Of a DNA stretch of 64,000 nucleotides, positions 5,149-46,218 are shown piece after piece (the first letter of the stretch is position 1; every line of letters begins with the position of its first letter). Below the pieces are notes generated by a model. It had not been told where the DNA came from and ran no database searches. It worked only from the letters and a program-made list of their open reading frames with translations. The position numbers were made by a program, and so were the translations under genes. Where the stretch lies: positions 160,001 to 224,000 of the forward strand of contig CP000066.1 of NCBI GenBank assembly GCA_000002445.1, written 5' to 3'. The DNA comes from Trypanosoma brucei. Taxonomy: Eukaryota.

Positions 5149-5708
5149 AATCCTCCTACCTACTTTTGAGTAGTGAAAAATAATAATAATTATTATTATT
5201 ATAAGGAAAGGTAGTGCAACAGAGCACGCAATTAAATCATGATTTTATTTGTGTTTATCTCCCCCTCCGCAATCAACGGTAAAAAAAGGGCCCAGCACCA
5301 CCGTACGTACCGTCAAGTAGCAGAGTTAGTAACTTCAATGAAAATTGCTGCATCGCTGCTGCTCCCACAAACAACGTAATGCCAAGAAACAAATAAAGGA
5401 GGCAACCCTTCGAGTGGTCTTCGTGAGGCATCAAAATGTGAAGCTTCATGCAACCAAACCAAAATTATAGACACGCATATGTACATGTACATGTATATAT
5501 TATATTATATATATATATATATATATATACTTATTTGCTTATGTGCAAAAGCAGCACCTAATAATGATACAGCTTACTCGCACTACTCCACCCCCCCTCC
5601 TCCTCGAAAGAACTTTGAAAATTGCTTACCGGCAGCACGTTTCAATTGCGGTATCGCCACCACTCGGACGCAACGGTTGGGTCATACAAAAGGGTTTCAA
5701 TGGAAATG

Positions 5709-7463: not shown

Positions 7464-7865
7464 CGACTGCAATTGCTTCACTATATATAAATAAATAAAT
7501 ATTTATATTAATATTTATATTTAAAAAAATTTTACTGCTCCACCGATGCTGAAGGCACAGACAGACAGACAGACACACACACACCAACTGATATAAGACG
7601 AGAAAAAACAAACAAAAAACAAACTAACAAACTAACAAATATAATTTTTAACGGTAAATGTAACTTACAGACTAAACTACCAGTCACTTGGCGATGTAAC
7701 GTCCTACCTTGATAACTCTCTCTCTCTCTCTCGAAAAAAAAAGGCTCGTCAAACGGTAGAGGGGAAGACAAAAAAAAAAGATAAACGCTAAAATAATAAT
7801 GATAATGATTGAACTTGCTTGATTTTTTTAAAAAAAAATGCAGAAAGAAAGAAAAGGTAAGTATA

Positions 7866-8294
7866 AAAATACAAATAAATGCACAGACAAAAAAAATAAT
7901 AAACAAACAAATGTATATTTAGTTAAGCAAAGAAGGTGCAGATACTGGATAAATTTTGCAACTCCTGTAGAATACAGTCTCCACTCCACTCATCACCACA
8001 AGGGGAGGAGAAAAAAAAATGGAGAAGAAAACACGCACTCGCATGCCGAATGACTCACAACATACACACATACTTTGCAACCCAATGTCTACTGGCCTTA
8101 ATAAGCACATTCACATCAGAAATATATCGGCACATCAGGAGGCAACAAATGTTTTGGATGGTGTAAAAGAAATATTTCCGCATGTTTGTCTAGTGGAATC
8201 ATCCACTTGTCAGCTCAGTCATATTATAAGTTTATTATTGCGTGTAACTTCTTCACACATTCATATTTTTTCCCCTTTCCTTTTAGAGTTGCCC
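7866..8294 (-). repeat. Dispersed intergenic repeat, copy 1 (full-length, about 429 bp)
   Basis: Near-identical to 35025-35459 over about 430 bp (a handful of substitutions, one 11-bp indel near the right end). Contains all of copy 2. Lies between the P450 and kinase genes. Confidence 0.9.
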
Positions 8295-8910
8295 TTTCGA
8301 AGGTGTTTTTTTTTTTTCACGATATCCGGTCAGTGCACGTTAGTGGTGTTGAAAGGTAAAATAAAAAGCATAAAACGCTTTCTTGTACGCAATCAACGCA
8401 ACAGCTATCATGATGATAACACGTGTTTCCACCGTAACTTGAACCTAAAGAGTTGCGAAAACCAAAAAAAAAAAAAGAAGGAGGAGGAACAATTAAAAAG
8501 CGGGAGTTGCAGTCTTTCACAGCGTAGACAAACGAATATGCACAAAAACAAACATTGTGCTAAACGTAAAAGGCAGTCAGTCACATTTAGGTGGAACACA
8601 AATATCGAAGCATATAAATAGATACTTAATGAACATCGTACAACCCCGAACAACGGTTGCAGTATTCTATGTCAGCTGCGCTAATCATGACAATAGCCTC
8701 CACGTACCAAAGAAGGAGCAAAGGTAAAAACAACAGAGAAAAGGGAGAAAGAAACAAATGAAGAAAGAAGAGGAAGACAAAAAAAGAAAAAGAAAAGAAA
8801 AGAAGAACGATGCCTCTGCGTGGGTGCCATCGCCTTACGAAAGTTCATGCAGCATTGCATATGTAAATATATGTATCTGTATATCAATTTATTTCTTGTG
8901 TGTTCTTTCT

Positions 8911-12361: not shown

Positions 12362-14359
12362 CTACACGATGTCGGCGTTACGTGGAGCTACGACTTCTCT
12401 CACTCCCAAAAGTGACTCCATGCCTTCATAAACTGAAGGAAGCACTTGGGAGTAAAATAATGATGCCGTAAGAATCCCAACACCATATGAAACCTCCAAC
12501 TGTACATCCGTACTGCAGAGCATCAATACGAAGAATTGACCCACATAATTTAGCGGTATCTCCACTACACCGACAGAAATGAGAAGAATCAACAACTGCT
12601 GCCAAGCTTTAGGAAAGTCTCGAAGGACATATTCCAAACCAATTAAATTAACACAGAAGGCAATAACAAAATAAAGTCCAAGTACCCAATGATAGAAATG
12701 ATGGAAACTCCACAGAATACCTCCATCAAAGCCTGTAGCAATATACATACAAACTTTGAGGTAATATCCACCAAGACAAAACACAACTAAAATTAAAAAT
12801 AGGCGCATCACGTAAGAAAGAAGAATGCAACAAGTGGGTACGCAAACGGGGTGACGCGCACTGCCATACGGCGACAAGGGAACACACTCAAGTACTAAAG
12901 TATATGGAGTTTTGCACTCAGCGCAAACTCGTCTATGTTCCACATTCGTTGTGGTGTTTCTCCACTTTTCTAAGCATTGCCTGTGGACATACTTTGATGT
13001 GCCATCGCAAGCGCAAGGAGAAAACAAATCCTCAACAGGATCGGTGCACCGGCATATTCGGCACAAATCACCGCTCTCACCATCATCACCATCATCATCA
13101 TCGTCATCAACACTATTATTATTATTATTATTGTTATTCCCATCAGTCCCTTGCGCCAAAGTGCCGCGCGTTCCTCCCTCACGTGTATTACCAGCGCCAA
13201 GTGTTTCCTCATCAGCAGAAATCAAAATAACACCTTCATCTTCTCGAGATCTACGGAACAAACGACGGATACGTTCAAGAAGCGTGCGTAATGTCGGTAA
13301 CAACAACTCAGTCCAAACTTCAACACCGGCTCGACGCAACGCTGCAAGAATTCGAAGAATTGGGAAACACGGGAGGTCATCACCTTCAACTTCCTCAAAA
13401 AGAACGGTACGTTGCCGTCCCTCCAATGGTACAGCCCGCCAAAGTCGCACACCCAACTCTTTTGTACCAATAACAAATGAAAAAAATATACATAAACATC
13501 CACCAAGCAGAAACAGAGATCCGGTAACTGACCCCGTCAACCACATGCGGAAATGAAACGCATCGGCAGGCGTACGTAACACAACCAAAATATCAACTTC
13601 ACATGCCGAGTCGGGTGGTAATGCAGCGGAAATCCGCAGGAGCCATGGCGTATTCCATGAAAGTGGATTATGCGGGTGATGAATAATCCTTCCACTAAAA
13701 CTTTCCAGCGGTATGTTTTTATAACTATCCGTATAGCGGAAACTGCTGGCCTGGACGCATTCATCAATTAATTCATTACAACTTTGAACAGCGTCGTGGC
13801 GCGGTCCTCCACCAAAAAAGGGCAAGTTTGATGATGCCGTACCTTCAATTGGAAATGGAAAGGTTAAATTGCTATTATTACCACCACTACCACCAGTTAC
13901 TGAAATGAAGCGTCGCACAGCTTCTTTATTTGTTGGCCCCAAAACGGAGTCTTTCCGCAATAAAGAAACGAAATGACTTTCCCATCCGCCACGAAATCGT
14001 AGCAGAATCGTGCCACCAAAATGAAGTAAAGAACACGAATCCACTTTGGGTGCTGCATCAGAGGAACTATTAAAAGGTGTGCAGAAGGGAATAAGAAATA
14101 GAAACTTTTTCACCTTCAAAACACGTTTCTCCTCAGTCCCGTAGTTGCTAAAATTAACAATTGCATGCAACGCAAATAAGCGCGCAGGATTCGGTCCCGC
14201 ATAAATGGTGCTACGCAAACCCAAATCTACATTACGCCACGTCGTAATGGAGAGAGTTTCGTTAAGTTTCGCATCGAAAAGAGCTAAAGACGGTTGAAAA
14301 GCAGCATCCGCAACACCTGCAACCGCACATACGGCAACAACAATAAAATATAAGAGCAT
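12362..14359 (-). CDS. RING-CH (RINGv/MARCH-type) E3 ubiquitin ligase-like polytopic membrane protein with a large N-terminal lumenal/extracellular domain
   Basis: C4HC3 RING-variant CRICRCTDPVEDLFSPCACDGTSKYVHRQCLEKWRN...CAECKTPY, followed by several TM helices. Caller start at 14425 is GTG; the first ATG at 14359 gives MLLYFIVVAVCAVAGVADA, a signal peptide. Contains an N8 and D-rich run (GNNNNNNNNSVDDDDDDGDDGE) just before the RING. Confidence 0.8.
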   Translation of the reverse strand: MLLYFIVVAVCAVAGVADAAFQPSLALFDAKLNETLSITTWRNVDLGLRSTIYAGPNPARLFALHAIVNFSNYGTEEKRVLKVKKFLFLIPFCTPFNSSSDAAPKVDSCSLLHFGGTILLRFRGGWESHFVSLLRKDSVLGPTNKEAVRRFISVTGGSGGNNSNLTFPFPIEGTASSNLPFFGGGPRHDAVQSCNELIDECVQASSFRYTDSYKNIPLESFSGRIIHHPHNPLSWNTPWLLRISAALPPDSACEVDILVVLRTPADAFHFRMWLTGSVTGSLFLLGGCLCIFFSFVIGTKELGVRLWRAVPLEGRQRTVLFEEVEGDDLPCFPILRILAALRRAGVEVWTELLLPTLRTLLERIRRLFRRSREDEGVILISADEETLGAGNTREGGTRGTLAQGTDGNNNNNNNNSVDDDDDDGDDGESGDLCRICRCTDPVEDLFSPCACDGTSKYVHRQCLEKWRNTTTNVEHRRVCAECKTPYTLVLECVPLSPYGSARHPVCVPTCCILLSYVMRLFLILVVFCLGGYYLKVCMYIATGFDGGILWSFHHFYHWVLGLYFVIAFCVNLIGLEYVLRDFPKAWQQLLILLISVGVVEIPLNYVGQFFVLMLCSTDVQLEVSYGVGILTASLFYSQVLPSVYEGMESLLGVREVVAPRNADIV

Positions 14360-14513
14360 TTCCCACAGGATGGGAGGGAGGAGAAAAAAAAAAACGATTG
14401 TTGAAATCCTTGCGAATTCGTACACAAATTTGTAAATGTAGAGATATGAGAAGTTTGAAGGAGAGAAAAAATAAAATAGAGAAAATAAAATGCACGAGAT
14501 ATGTAATCCAAAG

Positions 14514-14545
14514 CACAGACACAGACAGACAGACAGACAGACACA

Positions 14546-14578
<33 letters not shown>
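14514..14578. repeat. (ACAG)n followed by (TA)n microsatellite
   Basis: cacagacacagacagacagacagacagacagacacatatatgtatatatatatatatatatatatatat read directly. Confidence 0.9.
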
Positions 14579-16778
14579 GTTTGAGGGTATAAATATATAT
14601 ATTATTTTCCTTAAAGAAAAAGAAAAGAAAAATGCAAGTCAGCTGCACCCAACACGGGAGTTTACGCAGAAGCCACAAAAAAAAAATTGTTTGATTCACC
14701 TCCAGAAGAGAAAGGAAGAGAGACAAATAAAATTAAAATAAAGAAGAACTGCAGCGCGCATCCCTCCTATGGGTTTCAAACACATGAAATAACTAATAAA
14801 ATCAACACCCATGACCGCAATTTCCATCCTTTTGAGAATAAATACCGCCATGAGTTGATGTAAAGTCGCATTTGCCCGCCAGATTCAACAGGAAGTCGCA
14901 AAATATTGGGGGAAAAAGGCAAAAAAAAAGAGAAGAAACCTGCGCCAAAAAGTCGCGTCAACATCTTCAACTTTTTTTTTTGACATCATCTTCTCCCACA
15001 TTTCCTCCCTTTCCTTTTGGTTTTTTTTTTTCAGGCACACAAATGCGTGAGGTACGCGGCGTCACCGTGTGAGCGGGAGTAATAAAAATAAAAATAAATT
15101 CATTTCCCTTTAATTTTGACATGCAAATGTAAATAATACCTTCAGTACTGTATGAGAGATATTCCCAGCTACCAATTCATCATGTTCTACCAATACGGTA
15201 GTTGATGATAATTAATATCCATTTCATAAACTAAAGCTTGAAATAATTAAGAGGAGGGCCAAATTCTCCCTTCCTTCCTTCCTTCCTTCCCCACCCTCTT
15301 ATTCTTATTATTCTTCTTCTTCTCATCCTCCTCCCCCTTCTTCATTAATCAAAAAAAAAGAAAAAGGTAGGAAAAAAAGAAGAAAAAAAGAAAAGAAGAA
15401 AAATAAAACCAGAAATGCTGCAGAAGTTATGGTACAAGAAGTGCAAACAAACACAAATTGTATGAAGACAAGGGAGAGAGAGAGAGGGGGGGGGAGGGGG
15501 GTGATAATTAGAAAAAAAAGAGGGGAAGAAGAAGAAGAAAAAAAAAAGCAACAGAAGGAGTGAAATAGGAACACTCATCAGCATGCATTCATCGACATGT
15601 TCTTCAGTACGAACCACCAGGGAAATCTTGCTTTTTTTCTTTTTTTTTTGTGTTCGTGTTCGTGTTCGTGTTTGTGTGTGTTTGTTTTTTTTTTAAATCT
15701 TTTTTTGTTTTTTTTGTCTTCTTTTTCTTGTTGATTATGGTCCCTAAATATATATATGAAAATATATACTAATAATAATAATGATGGTGATAATGATAAT
15801 AATAATAATAGTAACAAAAACAAATATACGACAAAAAGAGGGGGGAAATAAAAAGAAAAGAAAAAAAACATGAAACTGTTCTCCTGCAGGCACACTCACA
15901 TACACAAACACACTAACAAACTTTTTTTATTCTTTTTTTTTTTTTAAAAGTCGTTTCAGTCGTTTCATCCTTTCTCCCTTTTTTTCCCCTTAAAACAAAA
16001 AACAAAAAATTTAACATTGTTTAATTCTTTTTCTTTTTCTTGTGATTTTCTTGTGAATTTGTTTTGTTTTTTTTGTGTGTTTTCCCTCATTTTATATTTT
16101 AAGTAACATTTCATTGAATTTGGAAAAAAAAAAATTCCCTTTTCCCCATCATCTCCGTTTCCTCACCTCTCATTATTATTATTATTATTTTCTTTTTTTT
16201 TTTCCTTCCCTCCCTCCCTCCTTCCCTCCCTTTTTCTTCCTCTTCCTCTTCTTTTTTTTTAAAAAAAATTTCTCTCTTTTGTTTTCATGTTTCGAGGGGC
16301 ATACGTGCCCACACTTTTCTCCTCTTTTTTTTTTCCACTTAACTTTCCTCTCCCATTTTTTTTTCTTTTTTTTTCTTTCCTTTTTTTTTCACTTTTTTCT
16401 CCCTGTACTTTTTTCTTTTCTTCTTTTTTTTTTCTTCTCAAAATCGTATATCTTTGTTGTTGTTGATGAAAGAAGGAGGAAGCATCACACAAAAAACAAA
16501 AAAAAAACAAAAAAATTTCAAGAATGAAAGAGGAAAAAAAAAGTAAAAGTAAAAGTAAAAGTAAAAAAAACAAAGAAAAGAAAGAACAACTTTCGGTGTT
16601 TCTAAAACTGAACTTCCCACAACGACAACCCGCCATTTATTTTTCTCTTTTTTTTTTTTTGCTTCTCTCTTTCTTTCTTTCTTTCTTTCTTTCTTTTCTT
16701 TCTTTCTTTTTTTTCCTTCAAGTGTATTTCTTCCCAAGTCGTACGGAACAGTTGTAAGAGCTCAAAAATAACGTTGCA

Positions 16779-17171
16779 TTATGCCATGGGCGGAACATCA
16801 TGTCCCACCTGTTGCATTTGCGAAGAATCCGGTCCGACAGAAGCCCGTAATTCACCAGGCCCATGCGCAAAAGCACATCTGTCACCCCAACTGCATTCTC
16901 CATTCTTTTCCCAATAAATACACATTTTAGTTTTGCGTTTCCCCTGATCAATACCATTACGACCACCACGGCCACCACGACCGCCACGATTCCCACCAGC
17001 TACCATCACCGGATCATAATATCCGCCAAACGAATAGCCGACAGTTTCTGGTAAATTCCAATGCGTTGTCTTAGTATTATGATCCAAATAATAAGGCTGT
17101 CCATTTGCGGTGTATGCTATTTGCCAACCTGCTGGAAGAAGAGGCGGATTTACTGCAAAATAGCCCTGCAT
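16779..17171 (-). CDS. ZFP3: Small RNA-binding protein with a WW domain, an RGG box and a CCCH zinc finger (ZFP3-like)
   Basis: WW domain LPAGWQIAYTANGQPYYLDHNTKTTHWNLP. RGG repeats GNRGGRGGRGGRNG. C-x8-C-x5-C-x3-H finger CIYWEKNGECSWGDRCAFAH. 130 aa. ATG and stop verified on sequence. The domain order matches the T. brucei ZFP family. The ZFP3 name is from memory. Confidence 0.8.
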   Translation of the reverse strand: MQGYFAVNPPLLPAGWQIAYTANGQPYYLDHNTKTTHWNLPETVGYSFGGYYDPVMVAGGNRGGRGGRGGRNGIDQGKRKTKMCIYWEKNGECSWGDRCAFAHGPGELRASVGPDSSQMQQVGHDVPPMA

Positions 17172-18110
17172 GTCTTATTATTATTATTATTGTTGTTGTT
17201 GTTGTTGTTGTTTTTTGTTTTGTTTTGTTTTTTGTTTTCCTCCGATGTGGTTTTATATATCGTGTGCGTGTGGTGCGTTTTCGTGTATTACAAGTGGCGT
17301 GGCGGGCTCCGTGCTGTTAATGAATAGAACAACAAAAAAAAAAAAGAGAGACAAAACAAACCAAAACAAAAACAAAATGAAAACTAAACAAAAAAATCCC
17401 TAGTGTTTAACACTTTTTCCCTTCACCCTTTATAGCTTATAATTTAGTAGTTAGTTCTTATATTAAAGAGGCGAGAGGAGCTCTAAAAATAAAATAAAAT
17501 GTTAACGGCAGCAGAGCAAAAGACAAAAGAAGAGAGAATAAAATAAAAGAAAAAAAACAGTAAGCGTAGAAATAGCACAAATTTACACATAAATGAGGGA
17601 AAAGGAAAGGAAAGGAAAGGAAATGCAAGAAAGAAAGAAAGAAATCAAAACAACAAAGTAATTTTTTTTAAAAAAAGCAAAGAAAAAAAAAAAAGAAAGG
17701 TCAATGAAAGGAAAAGAGAGGAAAGGAAAGAAATCTACAGGCCGAGTAAAGCAAATCCATAAAAATTACATACATCCACAAGAAGGAATATGTATCACAA
17801 CTTCACTCCCCCCCCTCCCTAAATGCACATGCACACAAACATACACAACTTATGTATACATCAAGTTCAACACTCCAACAAAACCGCTCAATAGACAAAC
17901 ATCTGAGGTTTATTAAACTTCTTAGATATCTTCTTCTTTTTATTTTTTGTTTTTGTTTTTGATGTTGATGTCGCTGTTGATGTTGTTTTCGCTTTCCCCC
18001 TTCATTCACTTACTCAGGCTACCAATACAAACACACACATAACCTCCTCCTCCCTCCCTCCCCTGTAAACATATACGAGCCGCGGATGCGTAACGTACGC
18101 ATCTCATCAA

Positions 18111-29805: not shown

Positions 29806-29829
29806 TCCACACACACACACACACACACC
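29806..29829. repeat. (CA)12 dinucleotide repeat abutting repeat copy 2
   Basis: cacacacacacacacacacacacc read directly. Confidence 0.9.
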
Positions 29830-29847: not shown

Positions 29848-30122
29848 TACAGTCTCCACTCCACTCATCACCACAAGAGGAGGGAAAAAATGGAGAAGAA
29901 AACACGCACTCGCATGCCGAATGACTCACAACATACACACACACTTTGCAACCCAATGTCTACTAGCCTTAATAAGCACATTCACATCAGAAATATATCG
30001 GCACATCAGGAGGCAACAAATGTTTTGGATGGTGTAAAAGGAATATTTCCGCATGTTTGTCTAGCGGGATCATCCACTTGTCAGCTCAGTCATATTATAA
30101 GTTTATTATTGCGTGTAACTTC
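29848..30122 (-). repeat. Dispersed intergenic repeat, copy 2 (truncated at both ends, about 275 bp), preceded by a (CA)n tract
   Basis: atacagtctccactccactcatcaccacaa...gcgtgtaacttc aligns to the internal part of copies 1 and 3 with few mismatches. Lies between the LRR-CCCH gene and the VIT gene. Confidence 0.9.
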
Positions 30123-31583: not shown

Positions 31584-32588
31584 TCAAGAACCGTAGCTGA
31601 GAAACAGCTCCTCACCAACCTTTATCTCCTTTGTGGAGCAAACCACAACGCGTCGATTTGACAACGGCTCTGTTTCGAGCAACACGCGTCGCCGCGTTCC
31701 CGGTGAAATGAAGTCAGACTGTACACAAGTGTGCAATGAACAGTTAGCCGCGTTAGATTCATCGCCCGCGATGGGTGTGCCTGAAGAATTTCCAGCCACA
31801 CTCGTAACTGGTGGATAACCAGTGGGGCTCCGAATAATGTCAATACCCGGCACTAGTGAGGGGAGAACATCGATACCTTGTTTTTCCTCCAACAGGTCAG
31901 CCAAATCTCCAGGAGAGGATGGCACACAGTCAACAGGTAACATGACACTGCGTTGGAGAACTGTACGATACGCCGCGCATAATTCGTCAACAGTGGGCAA
32001 CAGTGTTAATGGAATGCGGGAGGGATGTCGGCGCTGATTAAACCGAAGTATCGCATGTGTCGCGCGCAGCTGAGATCTCACCTGCGTTTCGAAATCCTTC
32101 AGATACGCCCGCCGTACCGGCTCATCCGCCACACCCGCTAACGCATCCGAAATGGCGGGATAACCACCAACATACGCCTCAACAAACGGGGAAGGCAGCT
32201 TTGGCAACAACGAGGAGGAGAGAAGTGGGGCAAATCCAACCTCGTGGCCCTGAGCCACGAGCCGAGTAGCACACGCCAAGCAGCTCGCCAACCACAAAGC
32301 CCGTGCAGTGGATATGTCAACACCACGACGCTGCAGGAACCTACACATTACGCGAATAGATGGCACTGCCACAGGTCGTAAGTCACCCCTCACCGTCTGT
32401 GCATTAAGCGTTGACAGGTACGGGACGGAAAGCACCACATCTCCAGCGCCAATTGGCTGATCTGCATGAAGAGAAAGTAACGGCATCAAACCTTGCATGC
32501 TTTGCCGAATGAACAATTTCTTGCTTACGATCCCATTTTGCGCGCACCACTCCCAGAAACCGGAAAAGGCTCCACCAGCATTCAACAT
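31584..32588 (-). CDS. SET-domain protein, RuBisCO-LSMT/SETD6-like class
   Basis: N-terminal SET-like segment (GAGDVVLSVPYLSTLN). C-terminal ...RRVVVCSTKEIKVGEELFLSYGS matches the conserved (K/R)xGEE(L/I)xxSYG end of the split SET domain of LSMT-like methyltransferases. ATG verified. Confidence 0.7.
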   Translation of the reverse strand: MLNAGGAFSGFWEWCAQNGIVSKKLFIRQSMQGLMPLLSLHADQPIGAGDVVLSVPYLSTLNAQTVRGDLRPVAVPSIRVMCRFLQRRGVDISTARALWLASCLACATRLVAQGHEVGFAPLLSSSLLPKLPSPFVEAYVGGYPAISDALAGVADEPVRRAYLKDFETQVRSQLRATHAILRFNQRRHPSRIPLTLLPTVDELCAAYRTVLQRSVMLPVDCVPSSPGDLADLLEEKQGIDVLPSLVPGIDIIRSPTGYPPVTSVAGNSSGTPIAGDESNAANCSLHTCVQSDFISPGTRRRVLLETEPLSNRRVVVCSTKEIKVGEELFLSYGS

Positions 32589-32820
32589 ACAAACTTACCC
32601 TACCAAAGGATTTGCGGCGCTCGATACCTTTTCTTCAACGAGCCCTTCTTCGTGCGGGTAACCGCAGTAACCCCAACTGCTCCATTACAATGGAAACACA
32701 AGGAAAAAATAAGAATGCAATGAAGGAAATTTGTGAACACCAGTCAAAGCAACCTGAAAAAAAATCAAAGAAAACAATTGCAATGGTAACAGATGGCCCC
32801 AGTCCTTCAGCGATAATGAG

Positions 32821-33387
32821 CTAGTAGTCGCTCGCTTGTACAGCGAACGGATCCTCGACACGTGTTATTCCACCCAGTTCCCGGTGCCTACGCCACCGCG
32901 GTTTTGGCACAACGTGGTTGACGCTAGGGTGCTGCCAGTAGTTTGGCCACGAGTTTGCCACATCCTGGTAACGGTGCGGAGCAAAATAGGCGTTGGAATC
33001 CGGAGTGGTGAAGCAAAGCATGGACGCCGCAGCCTTCTTACCATACTTGACCTCCATATTTTCGACTACTTTGGCATTGATTTCACGCTGCTGCTTGATC
33101 CGGTGCATCCAAATGGACCTACGGCGGATGGATTCCATGAGTTCTCGCATATGATAGTTCTCGCGCCGGTTTGGCACAAATTTAAATAAACCATTGGCGA
33201 GTGCATTCCCCGGGAACTTATTGTCAAATATCTTATCACGAACATAGAAGTGGCGAATTACCTCCCGATGCGCCTTGTGGAGCTGAATCAATTCATATGC
33301 AGAGGGATAAAACGTCATACGTCTAGGTACATTTTGCGTCCCAGCTACAACTGATCGGTACGAACCGCAACCGAACGCCCCCGACAT
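32821..33387 (-). CDS. Hypothetical protein (188 aa)
   Basis: Caller start is TTG; first ATG at 33387 (MSGAFGCGSYRSVVAGTQNV...). Basic, Trp/His-rich. No domain recognised. Confidence 0.5.
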   Translation of the reverse strand: MSGAFGCGSYRSVVAGTQNVPRRMTFYPSAYELIQLHKAHREVIRHFYVRDKIFDNKFPGNALANGLFKFVPNRRENYHMRELMESIRRRSIWMHRIKQQREINAKVVENMEVKYGKKAAASMLCFTTPDSNAYFAPHRYQDVANSWPNYWQHPSVNHVVPKPRWRRHRELGGITRVEDPFAVQASDY

Positions 33388-33728
33388 TACTAACAATGTG
33401 TGCTCGTTACACTCCTTTCCTTATCACTGCTTTTCACTGATATTCCTTTGGAATGGCACCTCCTTTGGCTACGAGGCACAGAATGAAGGAATAAACACAA
33501 ATTTGGCGAGGCACCTGTGCAGGAAGATACCGAAATACAAGAATCAGACGCGTCTCGCGAATTCATTTAAACGTTTTGTAAATAACCCCGTCTTCCTCCA
33601 TTCGTAGTGTCGCAAAAGAAATAGCCACACAAAAAGATTTGTCTCGATCCCCACAAAAACATCAGAGAAAACACGAAAGAGAGGGAAAGTTAGGCGTACA
33701 ATGCGCCCTCTGTGTGACACCCCAGATC

Positions 33729-34910: not shown

Positions 34911-35024
34911 TATCCTCGCCGGACTCGAGAATCAACGAAACACTTTCCGGAAAGAATTGTGAGGAAAGGCAGTAGCAAAAAGTGTGACATTTACTATGCA
35001 CAGCAGTAGAACGAGTTCGGGTTG

Positions 35025-35459
35025 AAAATACAAATAAATGCACAGACAAAAAAAATAATAAACAAACAAATGTATATTTAGTTAAGCAAAGAAGGTGCAG
35101 ATACTGGATAATTTTGCAACTCCTGTAGAATACAGTCTCCACTCCACTCATCACTACAAGGGGAGAAAAAAAATGGAGAAGAAAACACGCACTCGCATGC
35201 CGAATGACTCACAACATACACACATACTTTGCAACCCAATGTCTACTGGCCTTAATAAGCACATTCACATCAGAAATATATCGGCACATCAGGAGGCAAC
35301 AAATGTTTTGGATGGTGTAAAAGAAATATTTCCTCATGTTTGTCTAGTGGAATCATCCTCTTGTCAGCTCAGTCATATTATAAGTTTATTATTGCGTGTA
35401 ACTTCTTCACACATTCATATTTTTCCCCCTTTCCTTTTGGAAGTGCTTTAGAGTTGACC
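35025..35459 (-). repeat. Dispersed intergenic repeat, copy 3 (full-length, about 435 bp)
   Basis: Occupies 435 of the 574 bp between the stop of the 35485-36651 gene and the FEN1 start codon. Same orientation as copies 1 and 2. Confidence 0.9.
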
Positions 35460-35484
35460 GATGCTGCGTCGTCTCCTCTCTTCC

Positions 35485-36651
35485 TTAAGGGGTTTGCAAC
35501 AACCAAGATAGCACTCCTATCGCGCATGAAATCAAAACCAATACGGCTACGTGAAGCGAATAGTCACCCTTATTCCTCCGTCCGTCACCGTCAGTGACGT
35601 TTCCAGGGCCAGCAGCTGCTAGCAGCTGTTGCTCACCGCTAGTTTTATCCACCGACATTTTCGTTGAGGTGAAATGAGGCTCTAGAAGAACTCGAGACGA
35701 TGATAGTCTCTCCCCTGCACCGTCCTCAATCAACTCCCTCACTTGTCTCCACTGCTCCCGAGTGTGACCGGTCGCATCGCCAGTAGTGTGAATATATGCC
35801 CATTGGTAAATCAATGCAGGATTCCTCAGAGAACAAACACGAAGAATCCTTACCTGTGGTTGCTCACCAATTTTATCAATAAAACTAACGATGCTACGGT
35901 AAATATCTAACCCACAGGTATGCTGTGGGGCGAATGTTACATGTACGCAAATCAGCTCATCGTCCAAGTCTCTCTTTGCACCCAACTGCACAGCGTAAAT
36001 ATCCTTATATAGGTTCCAAATGTCACAATCCGCAAGCAAACGGCTACTGCGCAAGTCAACTATAGGGGAACTCGTCGTCGCACGGCCCCTTGCCCTTAGA
36101 ACAAGTGGCAATTTATCTAGTGGAGACACCAAATAACAGGGTAACGACACGAACGTTATTTCCGCTGTTGTAACCTTAAGTTCTACCCTACCACCAGGTT
36201 GAAGCAACTCGCATTTCTTCACCGCGCTATCTCCCCATATCACTGCGAAGAGTAAATTCACGCGAGGATTTTCTTTCAACAAACTTCGCAACTGAATAGT
36301 TGAGTATCCGCCGGTGTCTGAAAGCATAACGCCTAAAAAAAGAACACCACAGGGTAAAATCTGTTCAAGACAGTCTACCTGTTCAGAGATGACCTCAAGA
36401 TCCAGGCAAGGAATAGCGTCAAAGACGGTGCATACAGCATGAGCGTTGCTCGAGCCGTTCCTACAGACGCTACGCTGTCCCACCAAAATGGAGGGATTAA
36501 ACGACTCGCCAGTGGGAAGGGCACTCGGTGGAAGCACCACAGAAACATTCATGCCCCCAACAAACACCCTAGTAAAGACTTCTTTTGCTTCGTTGGTTTG
36601 GACAGGTAGAGAAGTGAGAAATTCAGTGGCGCCAACTAACCAGGCAAACAT
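35485..36651 (-). CDS. Hypothetical protein with N-terminal signal peptide and C-terminal TM helix (type I membrane topology predicted)
   Basis: Caller start at 36657 is GTG; first ATG at 36651 (MFAWLVGATEFLTSLPV...). C-terminal YSLHVAVLVLISCAIGVLSWLL is hydrophobic. No catalytic motif recognised. Confidence 0.55.
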   Translation of the reverse strand: MFAWLVGATEFLTSLPVQTNEAKEVFTRVFVGGMNVSVVLPPSALPTGESFNPSILVGQRSVCRNGSSNAHAVCTVFDAIPCLDLEVISEQVDCLEQILPCGVLFLGVMLSDTGGYSTIQLRSLLKENPRVNLLFAVIWGDSAVKKCELLQPGGRVELKVTTAEITFVSLPCYLVSPLDKLPLVLRARGRATTSSPIVDLRSSRLLADCDIWNLYKDIYAVQLGAKRDLDDELICVHVTFAPQHTCGLDIYRSIVSFIDKIGEQPQVRILRVCSLRNPALIYQWAYIHTTGDATGHTREQWRQVRELIEDGAGERLSSSRVLLEPHFTSTKMSVDKTSGEQQLLAAAGPGNVTDGDGRRNKGDYSLHVAVLVLISCAIGVLSWLLQTP

Positions 36652-38107
36652 GCACACTACCTTGTGATCGTCAGCAATGCGGTGACTTCCATGGGGTTAA
36701 AGTTGGTTACAGTTGCACCACAAGCTATTAAGGCAACGAGCGGTAGCCTTTAAATGAATAAAAACAATGATCTCAACACACAGCCGAAGTACTTGGCAGC
36801 ACTCCAGGTAGAATGGTTACTTCGCCACAACTTCATTCGATGCACATATTTCTAAGTGTATAGACAGTTCTTTCCTCTCTTTTCCCCTCCCAGAGTGGGT
36901 GGAGTGTGCTGTTACAGCTCCAGCCACTTTCCTACACCCGCCATTATACAGTGGCCATACAAGCCATTCGCTGAAGCGGGTCGCTTTCAAAATGTGGACC
37001 GCGGGAGAATGCAATGACGGTCCGTCACAAATAATGAAGGTCGCAACAAATGATAATAATAAAAATAATAGACGGGTACTGCGGAAGAATACAAAAATAG
37101 CACTAAAAGAACAGAGGGTTGCACACAGAGGCTAAAGTAACGACCAAGGCGGGTCAAACAAATGGGAAGAGTAACGGGTGAACGAGCAACTTACATACAT
37201 TTGCCACCTGACTAATATGAAGGACTAATGTAAGTAGATTCACTTTCTGTGGAAAGTACTTGCGATCTTCGGTGCCCTTTAACTCCTGTCCTACTACTGG
37301 AGTTTGGTACAAACTTGGGGTTATTTACTTCTTTGTTTGTTCTTTTTTTTTTTAATATGATCACTAACACAAAAGCAGGAAACGGCATGGATATCGAACA
37401 TCGTACATTTACAAGATGATTTTTACTATTAGCATACGGGTCGTTCTGTGTTACCCAATGCAACAACTTTTCTCGTTGCATGACCCAATTTCCCCAACTT
37501 ACCCATTCCTCTTTCGCACCCTAGGCATCGTGTCCGTGACACACAGCAATAACCACCACCTTTTCTCCGGACTGAGTTAAAGCAAAAAATAATTATGACA
37601 GCAAAACCCATTTTTTTTTTTTACAAATAATCACATATGATGCAGGGGATAGAATTAGCTAAACCCCCTTTAAAAAAAAAAATAGCATTAAAAAAAACTG
37701 TCGGCCAACACCTGGAAACATGAAGAACATGGGAATACAGTGCCCATACGTATTTAGAAAAGTTATTGAAGAACAACCTTCTGTTGCTTAACGATACCAA
37801 TATCATGTACAAAAAATAAAATAAGCAAATACAATTGCTGAGTATAGGGATAACACTTACGTTGACAATGTGCGCTAATGCCGCCTTTCCGAATTTAAGA
37901 GATTGCTGTGATTACATCGCCTATACGTTGGCTGTCGCCTCGCACGTCCGAACAAGCTTCAGCAAGAAAAGAAAGTTCTCCTGTACTCCACCTTGCAATC
38001 AACCTCCCCATCAGTCATTCACAGCGATAAGTGAATTACAGTTTTTTCCCCCGTGTCTTGACTTTTTCCATATTGAATCGACGACAGTCGAAGGGAACCA
38101 ACAATGG

Positions 38108-41961: not shown

Positions 41962-44900
41962 AGAAGCAATCGCTATAGCAGAGAAAGTTCACTCATCACA
42001 CAACCACGCTGAATGAGGGGATCAATTACAACTTACAAACAAAAGATGGAATCCGAAACGACAGTCGTCAAAATGTCTTGCAACAAACCGTACAGTACGG
42101 TTATCATAGGACTTTCGTTAATGTAGTGGTGTGCAGACATGTTCGAAAACAAAGAAGTAACCGAGTGACAGGTGGACGATAAAACAAAAAGTACTTAACA
42201 TTCATATGTTTAATTTTTCAACGTACTAGACACCCGATCCTCCTTTTCCCTGACACGGAAATACGCCCCACCTCCAACTCCTACGCATAGCCGAGCAACA
42301 CAACTCATTACAATACGAGAACCGAAGATCAGACGTTAACACAACGTATAGGTAAACGCTGCATAAAAATTTAACCTCACAATTGCCTTCCACCATTGGG
42401 AAGATAGGGAAGATGAGAGGGTAAACTTGAGAAAAGAGAGAAAGTTTTCAGAACCATACAGCGAGGAGCACATTTAGAACAAGCTGCAGAAACAGAATTA
42501 TTATCATCAGCACGCGGAACAGTGGCTAGAATTCCCCTTTGTTCATTTCCAAATAAACTGTAATGACAAAAATGAACCACGTATATCACGTTTCCATTAG
42601 AAGTATCACGGTGTTGAATAGTCGACCGCAACACCAAAATAATAACGATATTGATAAGAAGTGTTATAAAATCGAGCAAAGGATAAAAGAACACCCCAAG
42701 TGATTCACTCAGGGACAATTCGCCAAAGCAGCCGCGCTGCAAACCAAAGCCCTTCGCCGGCACCTGATATTCATCCTATCATGTACCACACCTACCCCCA
42801 AAAAGGTAAAGAAGCAAACTCTAGTAAAGAAGCAGGCAGCTATCCACCAAAACAGATTAAAGCCAACCGCGGCAATCAATTCAACGAAGTGACGGCAAAA
42901 ATACCACCCTCAGGTTCCATAATGCGCTCACCCCAAAACCTGATAACACCTCAAATGTAATTTAACAATTGCCACAGCACAACAACAATGCTCTTTCAAC
43001 ATACGTTCCGAAGACTCCTCCCTTCGGTTTCAACTGACAGGCACTGAAGGACATTCACAACTCTGCTTGTGTTGTGCATATTATCGGCGAAAACATAATT
43101 GTTTACATCAACGCTAACAAGAAGAGAATATGAGAACAAAAGTCAGCCAATACAACACGGTTAATAAGAAGAACATAACATGTTATAGCTTCATTACGGC
43201 ATATCCCCTTACTAATCACTACAATAGCAGAGAGCTCGGTAGCTGTGACAGAGTGGAAACGAAAATGAAAAAGAAAATCAATTTGAAAACAAACAAAATT
43301 CCAAAGTGTGCCCCGACGAGGAATCGTATGAAACGCATCCGCCCCATGCTGAGGGGGATATCTCTCTTTGCACGAAAAAAGGTTAATACTGATCCGGTTT
43401 CGGAGAAGGACAACAAGGCATTTGTGTGGCACGTGACAGCAATATGGAAAAAAGAGAACGGATAACATCAAATACAAACGGTGTTCTGTTGTGAGCATTG
43501 ACAGCCCTCTTCAAAAGTTTTTGTTGCAGTGGACGGGCGACCGGTCCGCACATGAAGTGGCAAAACGTTGGAACACGATTACCTGGTCGTGATGCAGTGT
43601 TGTACTTCGTGACGGAACCGCAGCGGCTGGTTGCGCGACGGAAAATCTTCAATCTTGGAGGGAATGCGCCAAATCATTTTGCGTAAGGAACTCCATCCAA
43701 GGATCGCGGACATACAAGAAACCCCACACACCCCAGCTGTCACATGCCCCGCAAAATATTTGGGGAGGTGGAGCACTGTCGGGTCGCAAACTTTCGCATC
43801 GACCGGAGCGACCGCCGCCCGTTCGTTTACTCTTCAAGGAAACCGGAGCAGCATTTGCAGGGAAACGGGGTGATATTCAAACCCCTTTTACCCAGAGCGT
43901 AATAACAAGTTGGGCGGCTCGGGTAAAGCACGGAGGCACACCGATAGAAAAGACACCCTGCGACAAACAGTAGTGCATCAAAGCACAAGAGAATTAAAAT
44001 GTAAAACGGGATCCGAATAGCTCAAGCGAATGGGTTGCCGGCATGGCATGGCCGCCAACAGCTGGGGATACTCGAAATTGGAGACCACGCACCGACGGCT
44101 GCGGTCTCGAAACTTTACCGTCCTGGTGCTTTACGGGCCGTAGCCTCCTTTGGATGATTTCGGAACCACAAAGGAAACAAATTGCCCCAGTGGTCAAAAA
44201 AAAAAAAAGTAGTACTTGACAAGCTGTGGAGCGCACTAGGGGAGCGACGGAGCTTCGCCTTCCCCCCGTATCAAAATGTTTGAAGGGAGGAAGCGGACAG
44301 GAGGGGTACAGGAATCGTAAGAGCCGTATGCCCCAACAGGTAGTAAGTGTTTTTGCAACAGTGTATTACGGAATGGGTTTTAATATAATTGCGGCTGGGG
44401 CGGTTGAATGTATACTCATTTTGCTGAGAGGAAAGCTTCACAGTGAGGTAGGTGTAGGGAGAAGGGCGTGCCAAAGGCAGCTGGTTATTGTAGAGCGCTT
44501 CTGGTAGCGGAGCTGGTTCCAGAGCCTATCTATTGCCAACGCCGCCTCAGGAAACCTGAGGAGTAAATAGCGTCTCCAAAAATGCAAAAAGGGGGAAATG
44601 TTTGCAAAACAGGAATGTGAGATGGCACACCAAGTGCCATGTACGGGGTCCTTCTTTTTTTTTTTTTGGGGGGGGGGGGGCAGCGCTACTTTTCTGAACT
44701 GAAAGATCTACGGACACCGTGTGTGGCAATGTTAGGGTGCGGCGGCTCCCCGGTAAGGTTGACGCTCCCCAAAATGAGAGGCGTGGTTGCTGCTCCAGCT
44801 CCTAACATGGGGAAGAAGGAATTTGACATGTAAATTTCTGACCTACCGCAGTTTGTTGTATGCTTCAGGTGTGGGGAGTTAAGTAAGCACTGGTGCAAAC

Positions 44901-46218
44901 TTGTGCCTTACCGGTGTTGCTGCTGCATCGACGCTAGTAGTGGTAGTGGACTGTGGAGCATTCGAGCAACCGGGTGGGGGGTAGCGGTGGTAGGAGTTTT
45001 GTTTCTTCTGTGGTTCGGACCCGACGGTGTGTCGTTGCCTCGTTCAAATGTGTGGCGGGTTGTGGTTCATAATAGGAATATGCGGGCTGAGTGGGCGGCG
45101 GAACTGGATGCAGCGGTGGCCGCCGCATTGGCCGTGGTGCGTGCAGTTGTGGTAGTTCAGTGGGCTGTGTATCAGATTTGGTGTTTTAGTGGACAGGGTA
45201 TGTTGCGCCAGTGGTACCGGACGGTGGAGGCGTTTTTTTTTTGTCACTCTGCAATTGTTTTGCAGTACAGCTGGAAATGGCACTCTCGCATCTGCGCTTT
45301 TGTATTTTATTTCTGGACTTTTTTTGATGCATCAACTCTGCGCGAAGGGAGGTTTGTGGAATTGCGTTTTTTTGTGTGTGTATTCTTTCTTGCTTGTGCC
45401 ACTGTTTGCTTTATTGGGCTGATATAGAAAATACGAATATACGTAGTGTTGGTCGGTGCCGCATTGACCAACGTTCCTTTGATGATATTATCACTCTGCC
45501 GCTGCCTCCTGAAAGCGTGCTACCATGCAACTGTGCGATTGCTTTTATATTCAAGGGCGGAAAAGGCTTTAATGATAAAACAAATCAGTGATGCTGAGCA
45601 GCGTTGTTTTTAGAAGCGAGATGAAACATGGTGTATATGTGTAAGTGACTATGAGAAGGGAGAAGTTGGTGCGTACCAAATTTTATTATATTACTCTCAC
45701 TTCGACCCGATATATTTTGTCTATTTGTTTAATATATATATATATATAATGCTCTCACAGTTCGATACATTTGTCGCACCTCCTAAATGGTTTCTAAGAG
45801 GCGGTGCTTCCGAGGGGTCAAGGCTGATGTCGATTACCTAGCAGCTGGTGTTATTGATGGTGATTTCTTTGTATGTGTCGAGCACTTACTTAAAGCTGCG
45901 CCTCAGTTATCAACTTCAGTAAATAAATGTTATAAAGCAGTGATCATTTTAAAGGTGCTCCTGTCTTTGGTGGACGAAATTTGTGTGGGTTTTATTTTGG
46001 GAGTTGCAAGTTGGGTATATGTGGTTATTTCGTGTCATATTTTTTTTTTAAAACTTAAGGAATAGTTAGTTTTTTTGTTTCCCTTTCGTCTCGTGGTTTC
46101 GATACGTCGCAGTACATATCTCTACTCCTTTTATCATCTTTTGTTTCTCCTAAGAATTAAGAAAGAACCTTTTTTCACTGCGTGTGTGTTCACATTTCCC
46201 CTCTAAGAAGCACAAGAC
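41962..46218. promoter_or_regulatory. Divergent strand-switch region between the minus-strand and plus-strand gene arrays; expected bidirectional Pol II transcription start zone
   Basis: All supported genes left of 41961 are on the minus strand; all right of 46219 are on the plus strand. The 4.3 kb between them holds no convincing ORF. Strand composition flips: C/A-rich on the + strand around 42.7-43.1 kb, G/T-rich on the + strand around 44.2-45.45 kb. Confidence 0.65.
44655..44680 (+). repeat. T13 G13 homopolymer pair inside the strand-switch region
   Basis: Direct reading: cttc tttttttttttttt gggggggggggggg cagcg at 44651-44685. Confidence 0.9.

What the first reader, a model, noticed from the sequence alone, without database searches (positions are those of the whole stretch)
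7866..8294. Roughly 430-bp dispersed repeat family: three same-orientation copies confined to intergenic spacers of the minus-strand gene array
Copies sit at 7866-8294, 29848-30122 (internal 275 bp only) and 35025-35459, tens of kb apart, between unrelated genes. They are nearly identical, with only a few substitutions and one 11-bp indel. All three are co-oriented with transcription.

In transcript sense (minus strand) the full-length copies end in a long polypyrimidine tract (...tttgtttgtttattattttttttgtctgtgcatttatttgtattttc). That is the signal class trypanosomatids use for trans-splicing and coupled polyadenylation. The element looks like a portable intergenic/UTR module rather than a protein-coding transposon. 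It has no long ORF, no obvious terminal inverted repeats, and no poly-A tail.

It does not resemble what I remember of RIME/ingi or SLACS. Such high identity between dispersed, non-tandem copies implies recent spread or gene conversion. Candidate roles are a shared post-transcriptional regulatory UTR element, a SIDER-like degenerate retroposon, or a small-RNA source.
Basis: seen in the sequence. Interest (0 to 1): 0.7.

Follow-up and report, generated by a model that had tools for sequence, protein, structure and literature searches.

The report
Low-copy intergenic repeat in T. brucei
Three near-identical copies of a ~435-bp non-coding sequence lie between unrelated genes on Trypanosoma brucei chromosome 3 and are transcribed as 3'-UTR or "novel transcript" RNA, but they look like recently duplicated, neutrally evolving spacer DNA, not a transposon, RNA gene or proven regulatory element.

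Summary
The window is T. b. brucei TREU927 chr3, 160001-224000. It holds two full copies (7866-8297, 35025-35462; ~97.6% identical) and one 275-bp internal fragment (29848-30122; ~96%). All have the same orientation, in three spacers of one minus-strand polycistron, between unrelated genes. All three are present at the same sites in T. b. gambiense and T. b. equiperdum, so this is not an assembly artefact. No homologue is detectable in the syntenic spacer of T. congolense, T. vivax or T. cruzi.

The element is non-coding: the antisense ORF is frameshifted in some copies, all its substitutions are non-synonymous, and it has no homologues. It is not detectably structured (z -0.3 to -1.5) and has no Rfam hit. 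It lacks retroposon and transposon hallmarks: no 3' poly(A), TSD or TIR, and copy B is truncated at both ends. Between subspecies it changes as fast as the unique spacer around it.

Published RNA-seq (Kolev 2010) places copy A inside the trans-spliced, polyadenylated transcript Tb3.NT.9, which is also an alternative 3'UTR of kinase Tb927.3.690. The main splice-acceptor sites of the downstream genes lie outside the element.

Best reading: a Trypanozoon-specific low-copy spacer duplication, spread at the DNA level and passively expressed as 3'UTR. Genome-wide copy number could not be determined. Interest is modest.

The parts
7866..8297 (-). [quoted passage not shown]
   Evidence: genes
29848..30122 (-). 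Copy B, a 275-bp internal fragment (sense positions ~47-326 of the full element), in the spacer between VIT1 Tb927.3.800 (stop 30449) and ZC3H6 Tb927.3.790 (ATG 29299). It is truncated at both ends with sharp edges.
35025..35462 (-). Copy C, full length (438 bp). It fills 76% of the 574-nt spacer between Tb927.3.840 (stop 35485) and FEN1 Tb927.3.830 (ATG 34910).
35439..35449 (-). 11-bp insertion (GGAAGTGCTTT on the + strand) present in copy C relative to copy A, near the sense-5' end
8000..8031 (-). Internal 32-nt polypyrimidine tract of copy A, followed by AG at 7990. This is a splice-acceptor-like signal present in all three copies.
29875..29902 (-). Internal 28-nt polypyrimidine tract of copy B, followed by AG at 29865
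35158..35185 (-). Internal 28-nt polypyrimidine tract of copy C, followed by AG at 35155
7866..7912 (-). Terminal T-rich tract of copy A (74% pyrimidine). It is part of a 127-nt AG-free stretch (7946 to 7819) that ends at the predominant P450 splice-acceptor AG (7819/7818; exon starts at 7817).
35025..35071 (-). Terminal T-rich tract of copy C. The first AG downstream (34995) is not the predominant FEN1 site (34942).
7860..8444 (-). Published transcript Tb3.NT.9 (chr3 v4 168444->167860, 584 nt, trans-spliced and polyadenylated, 1.72 RNAs/cell in procyclics). It contains all of copy A and ends 6 nt past it. Poly(A) sites are heterogeneous (predominant 8360, mean 8128).
   Evidence: Kolev et al. 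2010, PMC2936537, Tables S7, S12, S13

Best explanation
This is a Trypanozoon-specific, non-coding, low-copy duplication of spacer DNA. A ~435-bp segment was copied at the DNA level into two or three spacers of the same RNA polymerase II polycistron on chromosome 3. The likely route is ectopic gene conversion or templated break repair. One of the copies is only a 275-bp internal patch. The copying happened shortly before the T. brucei subspecies diverged.

Because trypanosome spacers are transcribed with the whole gene array, the copies are carried passively, in sense, into mature RNAs as 3'-UTR sequence. Copy A forms the bulk of Tb3.NT.9, the long 3'UTR isoform of kinase Tb927.3.690. Copy C forms almost the whole 3'UTR of Tb927.3.840. 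Copy B lies in the middle of the VIT1 3' region. The element carries generic pyrimidine-rich, AG-poor sequence that can contribute to local polyadenylation and trans-splicing choice. It has since drifted neutrally, possibly with occasional exchange between copies.

Shown: the copies, their positions and orientation; their presence in three subspecies; the absence of coding, RNA-structure and transposon hallmarks; the neutral-like substitution rate; and the transcript over copy A. Inferred: 3'UTR membership of B and C, the DNA-level copying mechanism, and the lack of a dedicated function.
For: Three co-oriented copies with sharp edges lie between unrelated genes. The same three sites are occupied in T. 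b. gambiense and T. b. equiperdum. Copies cluster mainly by position: orthologues differ 0.2-1.4%, paralogues 0.7-4%. Baseline subspecies divergence is 0.2-3%, so the duplications only slightly predate the subspecies split. The substitution rate inside the element (0.96%) is not lower than in the unique parts of the same spacers (1.14-1.49%; Fisher p 0.25-0.72). There is no TSD, TIR or poly(A), and copy B is truncated at both ends, which argues against target-primed retroposition. The antisense ORF has no homologues, is frameshifted in two copies, and shows only non-synonymous changes. There is no Rfam family or tRNA, and folding z-scores are -0.47, -0.27 and -1.45. Copy A lies inside Tb3.NT.9, and kinase Tb927.3.690 is flagged 'alt 3UTR'. 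At two sites 100 bp apart, copy A of TREU927 has the C-type state while copy A of the other subspecies has the B-type state, which hints at exchange between paralogues. No further copy occurs in the rest of the 64-kb window or in 9.5 kb beyond its left edge.
Against: Genome-wide copy number is unknown, and many dispersed copies would favour a mobile element. All three copies are in sense orientation in 3' regions of genes. This is what a selected UTR module would show, though with n=3 the chance probability is about 0.125-0.25. The neutrality test has little power (11 substitutions inside the element). No junction microhomology or empty site could be examined, because spacers of other species are not alignable, so the DNA-level copying mechanism is inferred by exclusion. 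Reads in the element are multi-mapping, so published maps cannot exclude use of the strong internal polypyrimidine/AG signal.
Confidence: 0.55

Rival explanations
1. It is a shared cis-acting 3'UTR or RNA-processing module. The element is retained because it sets poly(A) and trans-splice site choice, or binds a common RNA-binding protein, and so couples the expression of Tb927.3.690, .800 and .840 (and/or their downstream neighbours).
For: All copies are in sense orientation downstream of stop codons. All three keep a 28-32-nt polypyrimidine tract followed by AG within 2-9 nt. In copy A, the AG-free T-rich tail runs straight into the predominant P450 acceptor AG, and the Tb3.NT.9 3' end sits 6 nt past the element. 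The copies are retained in three subspecies.
Against: There is no excess conservation relative to unique spacer. The predominant acceptor sites of all three downstream genes lie outside the element, with closer pyrimidine tracts in unique flank. At FEN1 the first AG after the element is skipped. Copy B lacks the terminal tract. There is no significant RNA structure. No paper links the three host genes. Such pyrimidine tracts are generic in trypanosome spacers.
Confidence: 0.2
2. It is a non-autonomous mobile element: a short retroposon of the ingi/RIME/SIDER kind, or a SIRE-like derivative of VIPER termini, mobilised in trans in the T. brucei ancestor.
For: It is a dispersed, co-oriented, ~435-bp non-coding unit with 96-98% identity. 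Its size is almost the same as T. cruzi SIRE (185+30+220 bp), and degenerate VIPER relatives are reported in T. brucei. Short-read assemblies break at it.
Against: There is no A-rich 3' end in either orientation, no 12-bp or other TSD above chance, and no TIR. Copy B is truncated at both ends. The size is unlike RIME (~500 bp) and TbSIDER (558-587 bp), and divergence is 1-4% against 8-18% for TbSIDERs. Only three copies were seen, all within 28 kb of one chromosome arm, with none elsewhere in ~73.5 kb. There is no similarity to T. cruzi, T. congolense or T. vivax loci. No element-encoded or adjacent retroelement protein was found by six-frame search.
Confidence: 0.12
3. It is a small family of non-coding RNA genes (an lncRNA, or a precursor of small RNAs), of which Tb3.NT.9 is the expressed prototype.
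For: Tb3.NT.9 is a discrete trans-spliced, polyadenylated RNA at ~1.7 copies/cell, and 74% of it is the element. It is absent from the lists of novel transcripts with conserved ORFs or peptide evidence.
Against: Only copy A has its own upstream acceptor site, and that site is in unique sequence at 8444. Copies B and C have no separate transcript listed. There is no Rfam hit and no thermodynamic structure signal. Evolution is neutral-like. All copies have the same orientation, so no dsRNA for siRNA production is expected. About 1,100 such 'novel transcripts' arise from trypanosome spacers generally.
Confidence: 0.08
4. It is an assembly artefact or mis-join that duplicated one sequence in the reference.
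For: None beyond the general risk with repeats.
Against: All three copies lie at the same positions, with copy-specific substitutions, in three independent assemblies: TREU927, DAL972 and T. b. equiperdum IVM-t1.
Confidence: 0.01

Closest known systems
Low-copy interspersed or segmental duplications of non-coding DNA, maintained or spread by ectopic gene conversion (general phenomenon; established knowledge that T. brucei has very active homologous recombination)
   Same: A few copies lie close together on one chromosome. Identity is high and edges are sharp. One copy is a partial internal patch. There are no mobility hallmarks, evolution is neutral-like, and there are hints of paralogue exchange.
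   Different: The duplicated unit here contains no gene and lies strictly in spacers of one polycistron, always in sense orientation. The copying event itself is not documented.
'Novel transcripts' and alternative-3'UTR internal transcripts of T. brucei (Kolev et al. 2010, PMC2936537)
   Same: Copy A is literally inside one of them (Tb3.NT.9), and kinase Tb927.3.690 is listed with an alternative 3'UTR. These are spacer-derived, trans-spliced, polyadenylated RNAs with no conserved ORF.
   Different: That catalogue does not describe sequence families. I did not find the repeated nature of the Tb3.NT.9 body, nor its presence in two other 3' regions, mentioned in any searchable paper.
T. cruzi SIRE (short interspersed repetitive element; non-autonomous derivative of VIPER termini)
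   Same: The size is nearly identical (~435 bp). Both are non-coding, located in spacers and co-transcribed with neighbouring genes. From my own recollection of Vazquez et al. 1994, which was not checked here, SIRE can donate a trans-splice acceptor.
   Different: SIRE has ~1,900-2,200 copies genome-wide and is defined by homology to VIPER ends. Here only three local copies were seen. No homology test was possible, and no VIPER-type protein remnant is associated.
TbSIDER1/TbSIDER2 and RIME (short ingi-clade retroposons of T. brucei); Leishmania SIDER2 as the functional analogue
   Same: They are short, non-coding and interspersed.
   Different: Those families carry a 76-79-bp 5' signature, an A-rich 3' end and 12-bp TSDs. 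They are 500-587 bp long, and TbSIDERs are 8-18% diverged and mostly subtelomeric. This element has no A-tail or TSD, is 432-438 bp, is 1-4% diverged, and lies in a core polycistron.

Membership tests
ingi-clade short retroposons (RIME, TbSIDER1/2) | 76-79-bp conserved 5' signature (Pr77/HDV-like ribozyme region) | not testable with these tools
   No reference sequence is printed in the papers read or held by the tools. Indirect only: no Rfam hit of any kind.
ingi-clade short retroposons (RIME, TbSIDER1/2) | Poly(dA) or A-rich stretch at the 3' end | tested here: not met
   The sense-strand 3' end is T-rich. On the opposite strand the A-rich stretch is at the 5' end, and the 3' end (…TAGAGTTGCCC) is not A-rich.
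ingi-clade short retroposons (RIME, TbSIDER1/2) | 12-bp target-site duplication flanking the element | tested here: not met
   The best exact direct repeats in 25-nt flanks are 5 nt (A), 6 nt (B) and none (C). About 30% of random 25-mer pairs from the window share 5 nt or more.
ingi-clade short retroposons (RIME, TbSIDER1/2) | Characteristic size (RIME ~500 bp; TbSIDER 558-587 bp) and truncation, if any, at the 5' end only | tested here: not met
   The full copies are 432 and 438 bp. Copy B lacks both ends (sizes).
T. cruzi SIRE / VIPER termini | Sequence homology to the 5' 185 bp and 3' 220 bp of VIPER | not testable with these tools
   No SIRE or VIPER sequence was available. The 21.7-kb T. 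cruzi loci fetched contain no interspersed repeat and show no similarity to the element.
T. cruzi SIRE / VIPER termini | High copy number dispersed over the genome (~2,000 copies) | tested here: inconclusive
   Three copies were seen in ~73.5 kb, all within 28 kb. The whole genome could not be searched.
MITE / DNA transposon | Terminal inverted repeats plus a short TSD | tested here: not met
   The first 40 nt versus the reverse complement of the last 40 nt match at 11-19 of 40 positions. No TSD was found.
Known structured ncRNA (snoRNA, snRNA, tRNA-derived SINE and others; Rfam 15) | Match to a covariance model at the gathering score, or significant thermodynamic structure | tested here: not met
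   There are 0 gathering-score hits in 64 kb. The best sub-threshold hits are 14-17 bits against cut-offs of 38-106. No tRNA was found. Folding z-scores are -0.47, -0.27 and -1.45.
Protein-coding gene or pseudogene fragment | Conserved ORF with homologues, or synonymous-biased substitution | tested here: not met
   The 118-aa antisense ORF and a six-frame query have no hit among 5.8 billion proteins. The ORF is frameshifted in two equiperdum copies, and all substitutions in it are non-synonymous.
Spacer-derived 'novel transcript' / alternative 3'UTR (Kolev et al. 2010) | Lies within a mapped trans-spliced and polyadenylated RNA not derived from an annotated ORF | tested here: met
   This holds for copy A only. 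Tb3.NT.9 spans window 8444->7860, and Tb927.3.690 is listed as 'alt 3UTR'. No copy-specific RNA end data were found for copies B and C.

The most novel reading that the evidence does not exclude
The element is a recently active, Trypanozoon-specific mobile 'RNA-processing cassette': 3'UTR body, then polypyrimidine/AG acceptor, then a T-rich tail. On this reading it spreads between spacers by a mechanism that leaves no retroposon hallmarks, and it rewires the 3'UTRs and processing sites of essential genes (RCK kinase, VIT1, the FEN1 neighbour). It would be the functional counterpart in T. brucei of T. cruzi SIRE or Leishmania SIDER, with more copies elsewhere in the genome.
Probability: 0.1. 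Interest if true: 0.6.

Novelty: new member of a known kind. Interest (0 to 1): 0.25.

Why it matters
In trypanosomes almost all gene regulation is post-transcriptional and resides in spacers and UTRs. A sequence copied between spacers immediately becomes part of several mRNAs. If this element affected mRNA fate or processing, it would be a rare T. brucei example of UTR rewiring by sequence duplication, as SIDERs do in Leishmania. On present evidence it is more likely a small, neutral by-product of the parasite's active recombination. There are two practical consequences. Short reads in these three 3' regions are multi-mapping, so published splice-site, poly(A) and expression maps are blind there. 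Short-read assemblies also break at the copies.

Tried and rejected
**Finding further copies**
- Protein handles gave nothing: the antisense ORF and a six-frame concatenated query had no hit, so no called ORF overlaps a copy in any public assembly indexed here.
- An exact 30-mer scan of JGI metagenome contigs gave 0 hits.
- The next 9.5 kb of the same transcription unit in T. b. gambiense holds no extra copy.
- Full-text searches for 'Tb3.NT.9' and for six 21-22-mers of the element found no paper.

**Look-ups and supplements that gave nothing**
- Exact-protein look-ups with the P450, the 482-aa and the 378-aa TREU927 proteins failed.
- The supplements of Siegel 2010, Nilsson 2010, Michaeli 2011, Guegan 2022 and the nanopore lncRNA paper were not held or did not list these genes.
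- Kolev Tables S4 and S5 (all SAS and PAS) are cut before chromosome 3, so no copy-specific poly(A) sites for Tb927.3.840 or .800 were available.

**Tests that could not be completed**
- Empty-site test: spacers of T. congolense, T. vivax and T. cruzi are not alignable to T. brucei outside low-complexity tracts, so absence there is uninformative about insertion.
- The retroposon signature and SIRE sequences are not printed in the papers read, and PMC15765 is not held.

**Hypotheses rejected**
- snoRNA. A GUGAUGA C-box-like motif gives only a 17-bit snoZ30 hit with no D box in place.
- Small sense-strand ORF after the internal AG. Copies A and C are frameshifted relative to each other.

Full report
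**1. What is there**

- Copy A is 7866-8297 (432 bp).
- Copy C is 35025-35462 (438 bp). It is 97.6% identical to A over 422 nt, has an 11-bp insertion at 35439-35449, and has small indels in a pyrimidine run.
- Copy B is 29848-30122. It is a 275-bp internal piece, about 96% identical to both.

All three have the same relative orientation. Similarity ends abruptly at the edges, and 400-bp flanks share nothing.

The window has a minus-strand gene array up to about 42 kb and a plus-strand array from about 45 kb. Exact protein look-ups identify it as T. b. brucei TREU927 chromosome 3. Published coordinates for Tb927.3.690 fix the offset: window coordinate = chr3 v4 coordinate - 160000.

In transcript sense, the neighbours of each copy are:
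- A: CMGC/RCK kinase Tb927.3.690, then the element, then cytochrome P450 Tb927.3.680.
- B: VIT1 Tb927.3.800, then the element, then ZC3H6 Tb927.3.790.
- C: Tb927.3.840, then the element, then FEN1 Tb927.3.830.

The flanking proteins are unrelated, so this is not a gene-plus-spacer duplication.

**2. Not an artefact, and recent**

All three copies are present at the same positions in T. b. gambiense DAL972 and in T. b. equiperdum IVM-t1 (L001, L002, L008, L009, L012). A short-read T. equiperdum OVI contig ends 165 nt inside copy A.

- Orthologous copies differ by 0.2-1.4%.
- Paralogous copies differ by 0.7-4%.
- Baseline divergence of this region between the subspecies is 0.2-1.2% in most 500-bp bins and up to about 3% in spacers.

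The copies cluster mostly by position. The three sites were therefore occupied before the subspecies split, but not long before.

At two informative sites 100 bp apart, TREU927 copy A carries the state of the C copies, whereas gambiense and equiperdum copy A carry the state of the B copies. This hints at exchange between paralogues. It is not proof.

The syntenic kinase-to-P450 spacer of T. congolense, T. vivax and T. cruzi shows no similarity to the element. The rest of the spacer is equally unalignable, so no 'empty site' can be demonstrated.

**3. What it is not**

*Not coding.* The longest ORF is antisense (118 aa in copy C). It has no relative among 5.8 billion proteins, and neither does a six-frame query. 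It is frameshifted in two equiperdum copies, and every substitution in it is non-synonymous. Sense-strand mini-ORFs are frameshifted between A and C.

*Not a known or detectably structured RNA.* There are zero Rfam gathering-score hits and no tRNA in the window. Sub-threshold hits reach only 14-17 bits. Folding z-scores are -0.47 (sense), -0.27 (antisense) and -1.45 (275-nt core), which shuffles match easily.

*Not a canonical transposable element.* There is no A-rich 3' end in either orientation, no TSD above chance and no TIR. Copy B lacks both ends, which target-primed reverse transcription does not produce.

The defining features of ingi-clade short retroposons were taken from Bringaud et al.:
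- a 76-79-bp 5' signature;
- a poly(dA) 3' end;
- a 12-bp TSD;
- a size of 500-587 bp;
- 8-18% divergence for TbSIDERs.

The element fails every one that I could test. The signature itself could not be tested because no reference sequence was available.

T. cruzi SIRE is almost the same size (185+30+220 bp). It is a ~2,000-copy family defined by homology to VIPER ends. I could not obtain a SIRE sequence, and the T. cruzi loci I fetched contain none. Membership therefore remains untested, and the resemblance stays a lead.

**4. How it is expressed**

Kolev et al. 2010 (PMC2936537) list the following.
- Tb3.NT.9 is a trans-spliced, polyadenylated 'novel transcript' of 584 nt at window 8444->7860, at 1.72 RNAs/cell.
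- Its acceptor site (8444) is in unique sequence. Its body is 74% copy A. Its annotated 3' end lies 6 nt beyond the element. Its poly(A) sites are heterogeneous (predominant 8360, mean 8128).
- Kinase Tb927.3.690 is listed with an alternative 3'UTR, its short form ending at 8578. Copy A is therefore either a stand-alone spacer RNA or part of a long kinase 3'UTR.

Copy C occupies 76% of a 574-nt spacer. It starts 23 nt after the Tb927.3.840 stop codon, so it must make up nearly all of that 3'UTR. This is an inference.

Copy B lies 327-601 nt after the VIT1 stop, and the next acceptor site is about 510 nt further on. It is therefore inside the VIT1 3' region. This is also an inference.

**5. Processing signals**

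In sense, every copy has a 28-32-nt polypyrimidine tract followed by AG within 2-9 nt. Copies A and C also end in a T-rich tract (74% pyrimidine) lying in a 110-127-nt AG-free stretch.

The predominant SL-addition sites of the downstream genes are all outside the element.
- P450: 7817. This is the first AG after the element, 49 nt beyond it, with a closer pyrimidine tract at 7857-7842 in unique flank.
- FEN1: 34942. This is the second AG after the element. The first, at 34995, is not the predominant site.
- ZC3H6: 29339.

One caveat applies. Short SL or poly(A) tags falling inside the element map to several copies. The published maps therefore cannot exclude use of the internal acceptor.

**6. 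Constraint**

Between TREU927 and the other two subspecies, substitutions inside the element run at 0.96% (11 of about 1,142 sites). In the unique remainder of the same three spacers they run at 1.14-1.49% (Fisher p = 0.72 and 0.25). There is no sign of purifying selection beyond background. Power is low.

**7. Extent**

I could inspect only about 73.5 kb of T. brucei chr3: the window plus 9.5 kb beyond its left edge. That stretch holds three copies, all within 28 kb. No eukaryote-wide DNA search was available. Protein-handle searches, a metagenome scan and literature string searches found nothing. Genome-wide copy number is the main open question.

**8. Verdict**

The best-supported account is a Trypanozoon-specific, low-copy, DNA-level duplication of spacer sequence. 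It is passively transcribed into 3'UTRs and one catalogued spacer transcript, and it evolves neutrally (confidence about 0.55).

The rivals are:
- a selected UTR or processing module (0.2);
- an uncharacterised non-autonomous mobile element (0.12);
- an ncRNA gene family (0.08);
- an assembly artefact (refuted).

I found no description of the repeat as a family, so it is new in that narrow sense. It belongs to an ordinary kind of genome feature, and interest is modest (0.25). It would rise if a genome-wide search or a reporter test showed dispersal or function.

Noticed in passing
window 42000-45000: This is a divergent strand-switch region. GC skew flips sign near 44 kb. Divergence between T. 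brucei subspecies is the highest seen in the window (3.2-3.4% at 42001-42500). The published novel transcripts Tb3.NT.13 (43113->42053, -) and Tb3.NT.14 (45428->46090, +) flank it.
   Followed up: partly
window 35485-36657 (Tb927.3.840): The predominant spliced-leader acceptor site (36587, Kolev Table S12, 5'UTR 'NA') lies inside the annotated ORF. The first in-frame ATG downstream is at 36552, so the annotated start codon is probably wrong and the protein about 35 residues shorter.
   Followed up: partly
window 29808-29827 and the junctions of copy B (29848, 30122): A (CA)10 microsatellite lies 20 nt from one edge of copy B. A 6-nt direct repeat, GTCCAC, occurs just outside both edges. Matches of 6 nt or more occur in about 9% of random flank pairs, so this may be chance or a microhomology footprint.
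   Followed up: partly
L005 (T. equiperdum OVI, CZPT02001595.1) 8357-8521; L003 and L004 (Logan contigs): The short-read T. equiperdum contig ends 165 nt inside copy A. Two Logan contigs end 33-66 nt upstream of the FEN1 ATG, close to copy C. This is consistent with assemblers breaking at or near the repeat.
   Followed up: no
window 32501-33000: There are 11-12 mismatches per 500 bp against gambiense, equiperdum and a Logan contig. This is several-fold above the neighbouring bins, and it lies in or next to the ORF 32821-33396.
   Followed up: no
L009 (copy A) and L001 (copy B) of T. b. equiperdum IVM-t1; alignment column 138: The same 1-nt deletion in an A-run occurs in two paralogous copies of this PacBio assembly only. 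It could be a systematic homopolymer error or a conversion between copies.
   Followed up: no
window 14000-18000: This is a markedly AT-rich stretch (GC 0.34-0.35 against ~0.45 elsewhere) with few long ORFs. It contains the small ZFP2 gene Tb927.3.720 (CDS at window 16779-17171; its transcript runs 17505-15460). Tb3.NT.10 (15339->14537) partly overlaps its low-coordinate edge.
   Followed up: no
window 5485-5545 / 14542-14602: A 61-nt inverted repeat, 70% complementary, with arms 9 kb apart. It is most likely a chance match.
   Followed up: no
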